64,000 nucleotides of DNA, from assembly GCF_016026235.1 (NCBI RefSeq), contig NZ_CP065613.1, one strand, 5' to 3'. Positions 2,274 through 3,095 of the stretch are shown here, in pieces (position 1 is the first letter of the stretch; each line of letters begins with the position of its first letter). Under the pieces are notes generated by a model, which saw nothing but the letters and a program-made list of their open reading frames with translations, searched no databases and was not told where the DNA came from. The translations under genes and the position numbers were made by a program. Source of the DNA: Escherichia coli (GTDB taxonomy: Bacteria; Pseudomonadota; Gammaproteobacteria; Enterobacterales; Enterobacteriaceae).

Positions 2274-3095
2274 TTACCTAGTTACCTTTTTTAACTGCCG
2301 CTCAGCCCATGCTTCTTCAATATCAAACCGGGTCACCAGCGCATCATAGAATTTCTTAACTGTTTTTTCCCATGACGCGCGTGTTATCTGGTTTGTCACC
2401 TCGCATATAGCATTAAATGCCTCCGTTGATGGTAGTCTTTCATAGCCACGACCACCACAACGCTGGCAGTCTCTGATAACAGGCATACCACGTTTTACCG
2501 ACTCTTCACGATGAATGGCGACACCACGCCCACGGCAATCCTTACAGGCGGTGGAAACCTCACCCTTTCCGCCACACTCCGGACAGGCAACTTTTACCAC
2601 CTCCCTGACTTTTTTCCATTCTTCCCAGTAAGACGGATACACACCTTTCGTACACTTTGCCCATACCGGCGGCTTACCATCCGGATACTGGACCTTGTTT
2701 GTAAAAACTACGCTTTCAATAAATTTTTCCCCATAGCAACAAGGGCACTGCTTTTTACTCGCTGCGCTGCGGGCATAATCCTCAAAAGCGTACGAAGCCA
2801 TAATGCGCATCACTACCGGTTTTATTTCTGCCGGAAGTTTTCTCAACGCCGCCACACGATCGCACCGACTGAGTGCATAATCAGCCAGTAATTCTGTTGC
2901 CCGCGCCCTGTCATTCATACTGATGCCCATTTTCCCCAGGAACGCAGAAAACCCCATCTCAGCCCGATTCTGTGTCATGCCCTGCGCGGCCATCACATCA
3001 GTGATACTCAGCGCATCTTTTGACGTTGAGGCCGATGCATCGGTCAGGCAAGGGGATTTTGGGGAGTAGTATTTCGGTAAATCTTCCAGTTTCAT
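2274..3095 (-). CDS. Putative late-gene antiterminator (Q-like) with three DnaJ-type CxxCxGxG zinc-finger repeats
   Basis: 273-aa ORF directly downstream of rusA and upstream of tRNA/lysis genes; motifs CPECGGKG, CKDCRGRG, CQRCGGRG; synteny matches Q position in lambdoid phages. Confidence 0.45.
   Translation of the reverse strand: MKLEDLPKYYSPKSPCLTDASASTSKDALSITDVMAAQGMTQNRAEMGFSAFLGKMGISMNDRARATELLADYALSRCDRVAALRKLPAEIKPVVMRIMASYAFEDYARSAASKKQCPCCYGEKFIESVVFTNKVQYPDGKPPVWAKCTKGVYPSYWEEWKKVREVVKVACPECGGKGEVSTACKDCRGRGVAIHREESVKRGMPVIRDCQRCGGRGYERLPSTEAFNAICEVTNQITRASWEKTVKKFYDALVTRFDIEEAWAERQLKKVTR

What the first reader, a model, noticed from the sequence alone, without database searches (positions are those of the whole stretch)
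2274..3095. Q-position protein carries three DnaJ-type zinc-finger repeats
The protein in the antiterminator position downstream of rusA is large (273 aa) and has three CxxCxGxG repeats. This points to a Q family distinct from lambda Q and may indicate a different mechanism of late promoter engagement.
Basis: inference. Interest (0 to 1): 0.2.

Follow-up and report, generated by a model that had tools for sequence, protein, structure and literature searches.

The report
Lambda-type Q antiterminator, two-zinc arm
This gene encodes an ordinary, already annotated prophage late-gene antiterminator of the lambda Q family. It looks unusual only because lambda's own Q has lost a second zinc-binding module that most of the family still carries.

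Summary
Window 2274..3095 on the minus strand is an intact 273-aa ORF overlapping rusA by ATGA. It has exact CxxCxGxG repeats at aa 171, 184 and 210, plus a degenerate fourth (CPCCYGEK, aa 117).

The interpretation of a Q family distinct from lambda is wrong. The protein scores 183.7 bits on Pfam PF03589, the Q-lambda family. It aligns colinearly with lambda Q: aa 1-113 match lambda 1-113 and aa 182-273 match lambda 116-207. Its AlphaFold model superposes on Q-lambda in the loading complex (7ubn_Q, TM 0.81).

The extra 68 aa (114-181) sit at the body/arm junction and carry a second Cys4 set. Repeats 3 and 4 are lambda Q's own zinc ligands. All eight Cys are invariant in 38 diverse homologues.

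The long form is the majority architecture: 34 of 40 full-length sequences (35 cluster representatives, five reference phage Qs). phi80 gp17 and E. coli K-12 Qin YdfT are long forms. Short forms arose repeatedly by clean loss of the module.

A lambda-like late promoter follows the gene, with -35, -10, AACTAT-GGG pause element and terminator, then a tRNA, STnc100 and the holin.

The gene is known and very common: 2,467 of 5,426 complete E. coli genomes hold this Q region. Interest is low.

The parts
2274..3095 (-). Q gene: 273-aa late-gene transcription antiterminator of the Q-lambda family (PF03589)
   Evidence: ORF. Pfam PF03589 E=6.2e-55. PHROG 127 'anti-termination protein Q-like' E=1.4e-110. 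Lambda Q in the PDB, E=1.5e-40. The AF2 model matches 7ubn_Q with E=4.6e-15 and TM 0.81.
2916..3095 (-). aa 1-60: N-terminal segment. In lambda Q it is disordered and refolds with NusA into the RNA-exit-channel nozzle.
   Evidence: Gap-free alignment of aa 1-113 to lambda Q 1-113. Role taken from PMC9388147. The function here is inferred by homology.
2757..2915 (-). aa 61-113: first half of the Q body (four-helix bundle), ending in the conserved DYxRSAA motif
   Evidence: Alignments A1 and A2. D106, Y107, S110, A111 and A112 are identical to lambda Q. Helices 60-107 in the AF2 model.
2553..2756 (-). aa 114-181: segment absent from lambda Q. Predicted first zinc ribbon (C117, C120, C171, C174) bearing a long beta-hairpin (strands 125-136 and 159-170) with a variable tip.
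   Evidence: Gap in lambda Q. The four Cys are invariant in 38 arms at 25-70% identity, while the loop between the first two repeats is highly variable in length. Strands come from the AF2 models. Zinc binding is inferred.
2442..2552 (-). aa 182-218: lambda-Q-type zinc ribbon, the 'arm'. C184, C187, C210 and C213 correspond to lambda C118, C121, C144 and C147. The arm tip lies around aa 199-203.
2277..2441 (-). aa 219-273: second half of the Q body, with the helix-turn-helix and the C-terminal helix (L268 and T272 correspond to lambda L202 and T206)
   Evidence: Helices 223-231 and 239-272 in the model.
3092..3466 (-). rusA (Holliday junction resolvase), immediately upstream; its stop overlaps the Q start (ATGA)
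   Evidence: PF05866 E=1.8e-16; sequence.
2263..2268 (-). Late promoter pR', -35 hexamer TTGATT
   Evidence: Read from the sequence. Aligned with the pR' of lambda, phi80, mEp237, mEp460, ES18 and a Klebsiella prophage. It falls below the threshold of the consensus scan (8 of 12 matches).
2247..2262 (-). 16-nt spacer TTTCCGGAATCTGTGG: candidate Q-binding element (QBE)
   Evidence: Nearly the same spacer follows the Q genes of mEp237 (55% identical Q) and Klebsiella L007 (62%). The phi80 record annotates its Q site (TCGCGGA) at the same offset from the -35. This is an inference; no binding data exist.
2241..2246 (-). pR' -10 hexamer TAAATT, identical to that of lambda pR' and preceded by TGG (extended -10-like)
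2226..2234 (-). Sigma-dependent pause element: -10-like AACTAT at about +1..+6, followed by GGG (lambda has AACGAT GGG)
   Evidence: Alignment A3. AAC[GT]ATGGG occurs only twice in the 64-kb window, once here. Near-identical copies have AATGAT or AACAAT and keep A2 and T6. The start site and the pause are inferred from lambda.
2167..2193 (-). Intrinsic terminator tR' (stem AACCCGC...GCGGGTT followed by a T tract), about 40-68 nt after the inferred start
   Evidence: Terminator scan; RNA fold; conserved position in mEp460, phi80, ES18, Klebsiella and K-12 Qin.
2055..2130 (-). tRNA with anticodon CAT, first gene beyond tR'
   Evidence: ARAGORN calls it tRNA-Met. Rfam tRNA, 72.5 bits. RefSeq annotates the identical sequence as tRNA-Ile.
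1705..1894 (-). STnc100 sRNA element ending in a second terminator (1735..1714)
   Evidence: Rfam RF02076, 132.4 bits; terminator scan.
372..692 (-). Phage-21-type holin S, the first lysis gene of the operon that Q would switch on
   Evidence: PF04971 E=5.7e-32.

Best explanation
The ORF encodes the late-gene antiterminator Q of a lambdoid prophage, a full member of the Q-lambda family. By homology it should work as lambda Q does.

- It binds a Q-binding element between the -35 and -10 hexamers of the late promoter pR' just downstream of its own gene.
- It captures RNA polymerase held at the sigma70-dependent promoter-proximal pause set by the -10-like AACTAT-GGG element.
- It contacts repositioned sigma region 4 through the arm tip and the beta' zinc-binding domain through the base of the zinc ribbon.
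- With NusA, its N-terminal ~60 residues refold into a nozzle on the RNA exit channel.
- The modified polymerase reads through tR' (2193..2167) into the tRNA, STnc100 and the lysis and late genes.

The CxxCxGxG repeats are the zinc knuckles of the DNA- and RNAP-binding arm, not a chaperone domain. Repeats 3 and 4 (C184, C187, C210, C213) are the zinc ribbon seen in the lambda Q structures. Repeats 1 and 2 (C117, C120, C171, C174) most likely bind a second zinc. They would form an additional ribbon that carries a long, variable beta-hairpin at the body/arm junction. This two-zinc arm is the ancestral and majority form of the family. Lambda Q is one of several lineages that lost the first ribbon.

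Shown here: family membership, colinearity with lambda Q, invariance of the Cys, the promoter, pause and terminator layout, and prevalence. Inferred: zinc stoichiometry and pairing, the QBE, the start site and pause position, and antitermination activity.
For: - **Family membership.** Pfam PF03589 scored 183.7 bits (cut-off 26.7), with no Q21 or Q82 family hit. PHROG 127 'anti-termination protein Q-like' covered the full length at E=1.4e-110. phmmer against the PDB found lambda Q at E=1.5e-40, with aa 1-113 matching lambda 1-113 and aa 182-273 matching lambda 116-207.
- **Structure.** The AF2 model has pLDDT 89.7. All eight Foldseek matches with E<=0.001 are Q-lambda; the best is 7ubn_Q at TM 0.81.
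- **Conserved contact residues.** The beta' ZBD-contacting SAA motif, D106/Y107, L202 and T206, and all four zinc ligands of lambda Q are conserved (roles from PMC9388147).
- **Cysteines.** All eight Cys are invariant in 38 arms at 25-70% identity.
- **Long form is the norm.** 34 of 40 full-length sequences compared are long: 35 representatives of 50% clusters and five reference phage Qs. phi80 gp17, ES18 gp73 and the mEp237 Q are long forms annotated as Q. K-12 Qin YdfT is 40% identical.
- **Modularity.** A short form (P0163) is 82% identical to a long form (P0133) and differs by a clean excision of repeats 1 and 2.
- **Late promoter.** The pR' layout with AACGAT-GGG-type pause element and terminator is conserved after eight Q genes. 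Terminator.
- **Gene order.** rusA lies upstream and the holin downstream.
- **Selection and prevalence.** Synonymous sites are saturated while dN is about 0.27-0.30 against the 62-68% identical homologues. RefSeq names the protein 'antitermination protein', and 2,467 of 5,426 E. coli genomes hold at least 80% of the region.
Against: - No experiment exists on this allele. Activity, the QBE, the start site and the pause are inferred from lambda.
- Four of the lambda Q residues important for flap-tip-helix contact (or shown by substitution to be needed for antitermination) differ: A50S, C53L, H56M, L58I. The arm-tip residues also differ, so details of RNAP engagement may not be identical.
- The -35-like element next to the pause element, TTGACT in lambda, is not recognisable here.
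- The -35/-10 pair falls below the threshold of the consensus scan.
- Model coordinates could not be inspected, so the Cys pairing of the first zinc site is not demonstrated.
- The prophage is probably defective, because an IS splits its DnaB-type helicase gene. Q may never be called on to run a productive lytic cycle in this strain.
Confidence: 0.87

Rival explanations
1. One reading: the protein belongs to a Q family distinct from lambda Q and engages the late promoter by a different mechanism, as Q21 or Q82 differ from lambda Q.
For: It is 66 aa longer than lambda Q and has two extra CxxC knuckles. Whole-length identity to lambda Q is only about 29% by tblastn. The arm tip and several flap-contact residues differ.
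Against: PF03589 scored 183.7 bits, and neither PF06530 nor PF06323 gave a hit at E<=1. The protein is colinear with lambda Q over all 207 residues. The predicted fold is the Q-lambda fold. The pR' architecture is lambda-like. The insertion has been lost cleanly between 82%-identical relatives, so it is an accessory module rather than the core of a different mechanism.
Confidence: 0.03
2. The protein is a DnaJ-like chaperone or zinc-finger holdase fragment that merely occupies the Q position.
Against: There is no J-domain hit. The protein has a single His (H195) and no HPD motif. The DnaJ hits are below their cut-offs and cover only aa 163-218 or less. The rest of the protein is Q-lambda. Two of the 'DnaJ' repeats are the zinc ribbon of lambda Q itself.
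Confidence: 0.01
3. Same family and same basic mechanism, but the first zinc ribbon and its hairpin make an additional, functionally important contact. The partner could be the beta' zinc-binding domain, upstream DNA or NusA. Long-form Qs would then load or resist pausing differently from lambda Q, for example with different NusA dependence or QBE geometry.
For: The module is inserted between lambda residues 113 and 116, inside the patch (110-112, 117, 122-126) that touches the beta' ZBD in the loading complex. That contact is proposed to block swivelling. The four extra Cys are invariant and the module is retained in most lineages.
Against: The hairpin varies widely in length and sequence: the whole inserted segment is only 28 aa in three long forms and 77 aa in the longest. 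The whole module has been lost at least three or four times. Lambda Q works without it. No structure or assay exists for any long form within reach of these tools.
Confidence: 0.2
4. The gene is an intact but functionless relic of a decayed prophage and no longer acts as a regulator in this host.
For: An IS3-family element splits the prophage's DnaB-type helicase gene. The late region carries morons and a shortened tRNA cluster compared with relatives.
Against: The ORF is full length. All eight Cys and the promoter, pause and terminator elements are intact. It differs from other E. coli copies by only a few mostly synonymous changes. Intact near-identical copies are extremely common.
Confidence: 0.1

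Closest known systems
Bacteriophage lambda Q (Q-lambda; PDB 4MO1, 7UBJ-7UBN; Pfam PF03589)
   Same: Homologous over the whole of lambda Q: 42% identity in aa 1-113 and 38% in the last 92 aa. It has the same predicted body (helix bundle with HTH), the same zinc ribbon ligands, the same SAA, L202 and T206 contact residues, the same gene position, and the same pR' layout (TAAATT -10, AACxAT-GGG pause element, terminator).
   Different: It has 68 extra residues between lambda positions 113 and 116, carrying a second Cys4 set and a long beta-hairpin. The arm-tip residues and four flap-contact residues differ. The QBE sequence differs, the tR' lies much closer (about 68-nt transcript against 194-nt 6S RNA, the latter from memory), and no clear -35-like element adjoins the pause element.
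Long-form Q-lambda-family proteins: phi80 gp17 (Q), ES18 gp73, mEp237 Q, mEp460 Q, E. coli K-12 Qin YdfT/QuuQ
   Same: Same eight-Cys, two-ribbon architecture at 40-55% identity. They are annotated as late antiterminators or Q homologues and are followed by the same type of pR'. phi80 Q was studied alongside lambda Q by Guo and Roberts 2004 (cited in PMC9388147; the paper could not be read here).
   Different: The length and sequence of the hairpin between repeats 1 and 2 differ. In phi80 and ES18 the third knuckle is CxC rather than CxxC. In this allele the first repeat lacks the glycines (CPCCYGEK).
DnaJ cysteine-rich domain (PF00684) and anti-TRAP
   Different: There is no J-domain and no C-terminal substrate-binding domains, and scores are below the family cut-offs. 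The likely zinc pairing is sequential (1+2, 3+4) rather than the interleaved pairing of DnaJ (1+4, 2+3; from general knowledge). The function is DNA and RNAP binding, not chaperoning.
Q21 (PF06530) and Q82 (PF06323) antiterminator families
   Same: Same regulatory role and same gene position in lambdoid phages (PMC9388147).
   Different: There is no detectable sequence similarity (no hit at E<=1). The predicted fold is that of Q-lambda, not Q21.

Membership tests
Q-lambda family of antiterminators (Pfam PF03589) | Profile match above the curated threshold | tested here: met
   183.7 bits against a cut-off of 26.7, E=6.2e-55; PHROG 127 E=1.4e-110.
Q-lambda family of antiterminators (Pfam PF03589) | Colinear homology to lambda Q, including the N-terminal segment that forms the nozzle | tested here: met
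   aa 1-113 match lambda 1-113 (84.3 bits) and aa 182-273 match lambda 116-207 (59.2 bits).
Q-lambda family of antiterminators (Pfam PF03589) | Fold: helical body with HTH plus a zinc-ribbon arm | tested here: met
   The AF2 model (pLDDT 89.7) matches 7ubn_Q at E=4.6e-15, TM 0.81 normalised to lambda Q. This rests on a predicted structure, not a solved one.
Q-lambda family of antiterminators (Pfam PF03589) | Four Cys ligands of the arm zinc (lambda C118, C121, C144, C147) | tested here: met
   C184, C187, C210 and C213 align to them and are invariant in 65 sequences.
Q-lambda family of antiterminators (Pfam PF03589) | Gene lies at the end of the nin/rusA region, just upstream of the late promoter and lysis genes | tested here: met
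   rusA is directly upstream and a P21-type holin lies downstream. The order is the same in mEp237, the Klebsiella prophage and E. coli prophages.
Q-lambda family of antiterminators (Pfam PF03589) | Cognate late promoter with a sigma-dependent pause element and a downstream terminator | tested here: met
   TTGATT-16 nt-TAAATT-6 nt-AACTAT-GGG, then a terminator at 2193..2167. This is sequence evidence only.
Q-lambda family of antiterminators (Pfam PF03589) | Specific binding to a QBE between -35 and -10 | not testable with these tools
   Only a conserved spacer shared with mEp237 and Klebsiella, and the phi80 annotation at the same offset.
Q-lambda family of antiterminators (Pfam PF03589) | Antitermination and antipausing activity on RNA polymerase, stimulated by NusA | not testable with these tools
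   Needs in vitro transcription or a reporter assay.
DnaJ / Hsp40 (cysteine-rich domain PF00684; TIGR02349) | Central domain match above threshold | tested here: not met
   PF00684 gave 28.4 bits against a cut-off of 32.7. TIGR02349 gave 27.9 bits against 377.2.
DnaJ / Hsp40 (cysteine-rich domain PF00684; TIGR02349) | J-domain with HPD motif | tested here: not met
   No J-domain family appears among the Pfam hits at E<=1. The protein has a single His (H195) and no HPD.
Q21 family (PF06530) and Q82 family (PF06323) | Profile match | tested here: not met
   Neither family appears among the Pfam hits at E<=1.

The most novel reading that the evidence does not exclude
The two-zinc arm is the ancestral state of the Q-lambda family, and its first ribbon sits at the interface with the RNA polymerase beta' zinc-binding domain. 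If it makes an extra contact there, long-form Qs would load onto the paused polymerase, or suppress swivelling, differently from the minimal lambda Q. Examples might be altered NusA dependence or altered QBE-to-pause geometry. The textbook lambda Q structures would then describe a trimmed minority variant.
Probability: 0.2. Interest if true: 0.35.

Novelty: already known. Interest (0 to 1): 0.12.

Why it matters
It matters little as a discovery. The gene is annotated as 'antitermination protein', is present in nearly half of complete E. coli genomes, and has characterised relatives in lambda and phi80.

Two modest points are useful.
- The CxxCxGxG motif misleads annotation.
- Within its own family lambda Q is the exception. 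Most members keep a second, invariant Cys4 module exactly where lambda Q touches the beta' zinc-binding domain. No solved structure of a long form turned up in the sequence or fold searches of the PDB. A structure or deletion analysis of a long-form Q would show whether the lambda Q loading mechanism applies unchanged to most of the family.

Tried and rejected
- **Cys pairing.** Model coordinates are not exposed by the tools, so Cys-Cys distances could not be measured. The 1+2 / 3+4 pairing rests on three things: the lambda Q structure, the predicted hairpin between repeats 1 and 2, and the clean natural deletions. A DnaJ-like interleaved pairing (1+4, 2+3) is not strictly excluded.
- **Promoter scan.** The consensus scan did not report pR', which matches 8 of 12 positions against a threshold of 9. 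The promoter is called from its alignment with known pR' regions instead.
- **First pause-motif search.** My pattern had one N too many and matched only with one mismatch. An exact count of AAC[GT]ATGGG gave two sites in the window, one of them here.
- **Rfam.** Rfam has no family for the short pR'-tR' transcript. The Trp_leader match (25.5 bits against 41, E=0.035) is taken as chance.
- **Literature.** Guo and Roberts 2004 (lambda and phi80 Q) and Vorobiev 2014 are not held. Searches for quuQ/ydfT, and for Q combined with DnaJ zinc finger, found nothing on the second zinc site. StxS is linked to the 144-aa Q of Stx phages, not to this family.
- **Salmonella homologue.** The locus of P0010 (L009, L010) has no pR' after Q. 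It has a different downstream region, so it added nothing.

Full report
**What is there**

Window 2274..3095 holds one long ORF, on the minus strand, of 273 aa. Its ATG overlaps the stop codon of the upstream ORF 3092..3466 (ATGA). That upstream ORF is RusA (PF05866, E=1.8e-16). Translation gives exact CxxCxGxG motifs at aa 171 (CPECGGKG), 184 (CKDCRGRG) and 210 (CQRCGGRG). A fourth CxxC at aa 117 (CPCCYGEK) has lost the glycine pattern. In 200,000 shuffles of the protein, none had two or more such motifs.

**What the protein is**

- Pfam places it in PF03589 'Antitermination protein Q' at 183.7 bits (cut-off 26.7). The DnaJ central domain scores only 28.4 bits, below its cut-off of 32.7. Neither of the other two Q families appears at E<=1.
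- Yin et al. 2022 (PMC9388147) state that Q proteins form three unrelated families: Q21 is PF06530, Q-lambda is PF03589 and Q82 is PF06323. PF03589 is therefore lambda's own family.
- PHROG 127 'anti-termination protein Q-like' matches over the full length at E=1.4e-110.
- A search of PDB sequences finds lambda Q (7ubm_Q) at E=1.5e-40 in two colinear blocks. Query aa 1-113 match lambda 1-113 without a gap, and query aa 182-273 match lambda 116-207. Identity is 42% and 38% in the two blocks.
- An AlphaFold2 model built on 65 homologues has mean pLDDT 89.7. All eight Foldseek matches in the PDB with E<=0.001 are Q-lambda. The best is the NusA-containing engaged loading complex 7ubn_Q (E=4.6e-15, TM 0.81 normalised to lambda Q). 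DnaJA2 appears only at E of about 1.

The underlying idea that this is the Q antiterminator is confirmed.

**Where the repeats sit**

In lambda Q the 'body' is residues 61-113 and 153-207, a helix bundle with an HTH. The 'arm' is a zinc ribbon, residues 114-152 (PMC9388147). The query's extra 68 residues (aa 114-181) lie exactly at the body/arm junction.

Repeats 3 and 4 (C184, C187, C210, C213) align with lambda Q's Cys residues C118, C121, C144 and C147. Two of the three 'DnaJ-type' repeats are thus the known lambda Q zinc ribbon. Repeats 1 and 2 (C117, C120, C171, C174) lie in the insertion.

The model predicts this order of elements: strand 114-116, knuckle, a long hairpin (125-136 and 159-170), knuckle, strand 179-181. 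That is the pattern of a classical zinc ribbon. The lambda-type ribbon follows (192-194, helix 196-202, 207-209).

All eight Cys are invariant in an alignment of 38 arms that are only 25-70% identical. The loop between repeats 1 and 2 is highly variable in length across those arms. This is the signature of structural metal ligands flanking a tolerant excursion.

I infer two zinc sites paired 1+2 and 3+4.

**How common the long form is**

An exhaustive HMMER search of 1.84 billion cluster representatives found 236 relatives at E<=0.001. I compared 40 full-length sequences: 35 of those representatives and the reference Qs of lambda, phi80, mEp237, ES18 and mEp460. Thirty-four have the insertion, 15-77 aa long, and six lack it.

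The short forms are not one group.
- Lambda clusters with two short representatives.
- P0163 is 82% identical to the long form P0133 and differs by a clean in-frame excision of repeats 1 and 2.
- Two other short forms are each closest to long forms.

The two-zinc arm therefore looks ancestral and modular, and lambda Q is one of several derived minimal forms.

Known long forms include:
- phi80 gp17, annotated 'late transcription antitermination protein; similar to lambda Q', with pR' and a Q site marked;
- ES18 gp73 and the mEp237 Q;
- the mEp460 Q, whose record annotates it as 'anti-termination protein Q-like';
- E. coli K-12 Qin YdfT, 'putative antitermination protein Q', 40% identical with the same Cys pattern.

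The allele itself is annotated 'antitermination protein' in RefSeq. Phage mEp460_ev081 carries a 98.9% identical copy. The Q region (window 1900..3500) is held at 80% or more coverage by 2,467 of 5,426 complete E. coli genomes.

**The late promoter**

Reading the minus strand downstream of the stop codon (2276..2274) gives, in order:
- TTGATT (2268..2263);
- a 16-nt spacer TTTCCGGAATCTGTGG (2262..2247);
- TAAATT (2246..2241), identical to the lambda pR' -10;
- six bases;
- AACTAT (2234..2229) followed by GGG;
- an intrinsic terminator with stem 2193..2174 and a T tract to 2167.

Lambda has TAAATT, six bases, AACGAT, GGG. The same layout follows the Q genes of mEp237, mEp460, phi80, ES18, a Klebsiella prophage and K-12 Qin.

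Near-identical E. coli copies carry AATGAT or AACAAT. They keep the second A and the last T, the two positions that matter most in a -10-like element (the latter point is general knowledge).

The spacer is almost the same after the 55% and 62% identical Q genes of mEp237 and Klebsiella. The phi80 record marks its Q site at the same offset. I therefore take the spacer as the candidate QBE.

Beyond the terminator, on the same strand, lie:
- a tRNA with anticodon CAT (2130..2055), called Met by ARAGORN; RefSeq calls the identical sequence Ile;
- STnc100 (1894..1705);
- further on, a DUF1737 gene and a phage-21-type holin (692..372).

**Mechanism**

By homology with the lambda Q structures (PMC9388147), the expected sequence of events is as follows.
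1. The HTH and the arm bind the QBE.
2. The arm tip contacts sigma region 4.
3. The base of the zinc ribbon contacts the beta' zinc-binding domain.
4. The N- and C-terminal segments contact the flap-tip helix.
5. NusA drives refolding of the N-terminal ~60 residues into a nozzle on the RNA exit channel, so that tR' is read through.

Conserved here are S110-A111-A112, D106/Y107, L202 and T206, and the zinc ligands. Differing are A50S, C53L, H56M, L58I and the arm tip.

The insertion emerges between lambda positions 113 and 116, within the patch (110-112, 117, 122-126) that touches the beta' zinc-binding domain. An extra contact there is possible. However, the hairpin varies greatly and the module has been lost repeatedly, so it is more likely an accessory or stabilising element than the basis of a different mechanism.

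**Selection and state of the copy**

Against the 62-68% identical Klebsiella and Salmonella genes, synonymous sites are saturated while dN is about 0.27-0.30. Against other E. coli copies there are three to five differences. The ORF, all eight Cys and the promoter elements are intact.

The prophage itself is probably defective, because an IS3-family element splits its DnaB-type helicase gene.

**Verdict**

The feature is already known and very common. The one mildly interesting residue is that lambda Q is a minimal variant of a family whose usual arm has two zinc sites, and no long form has a solved structure.

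Noticed in passing
window 3720..6378: The prophage's DnaB-type replicative helicase gene is split by an IS3-family element. 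The C-terminal part is 3720..4802(-) (DnaB_C, E=4e-73) and the N-terminal part is 5971..6378(-). The IS lies at 4818..5974(+): orfA has HTH_Tnp_1 and orfB has rve. The prophage is therefore probably replication-defective.
   Followed up: partly
window 2055..2130 (-): The tRNA just beyond tR' has anticodon CAT. ARAGORN calls it Met, but RefSeq annotates the identical sequence as tRNA-Ile, as for a lysidine-modified tRNA. Closely related E. coli prophages carry about 680 bp more in this interval, including a tRNA-Arg.
   Followed up: partly
window 1705..1894 (-): An STnc100 sRNA element (Rfam RF02076, 132 bits) lies between the tRNA and the lysis genes. It ends in a strong terminator at 1735..1714.
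   Followed up: no
window 1344..1679 (+): A 111-aa ORF on the strand opposite to the late operon is 99% identical to a RefSeq 'anti-adapter protein IraM'. It has no Pfam hit. It looks like a moron inserted in the late region.
   Followed up: partly
window 2229..2234 (-); L001 and L011 at the same position: Otherwise near-identical pR' copies differ within the pause element: AACTAT here, AATGAT in phage mEp460_ev081, AACAAT in strain ESBLEC_HM24. All keep the A at position 2 and the T at position 6.
   Followed up: partly
window 2167..2234 (-): In a lysogen, pR' transcripts ending at tR' would give an RNA of about 68 nt. Such by-products can act as sRNAs (StxS, PMC7547250). No Rfam family matches it.
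   Followed up: partly
proteins P0133 and P0163 (50%-cluster representatives): These two Q proteins are 82% identical and differ by a clean in-frame loss of the first zinc ribbon. This natural deletion shows that the module is separable.
   Followed up: yes
protein P0033 (Serratia quinivorans); L001 2568..3617: Two annotation slips turned up. A Q homologue is named 'chaperone protein DnaJ' by NCBI. In phage mEp460_ev081, a 349-aa gene two genes upstream of Q (rusA lies between) is also labelled 'antitermination protein Q'; the gene in the same position in E. coli ESBLEC_HM24 (L011) is annotated as a DUF968 protein.
   Followed up: no
window 9008..9195 (-), 23832..23874 (+), 27811..28118 (-), 44460..44537 (+): Rfam matches above gathering score: C4 antisense RNA and isrK in the prophage early region, ES036, MicL (370 bits) and C0465. 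MicL and C0465 suggest that the window runs from the prophage into chromosomal DNA.
   Followed up: no
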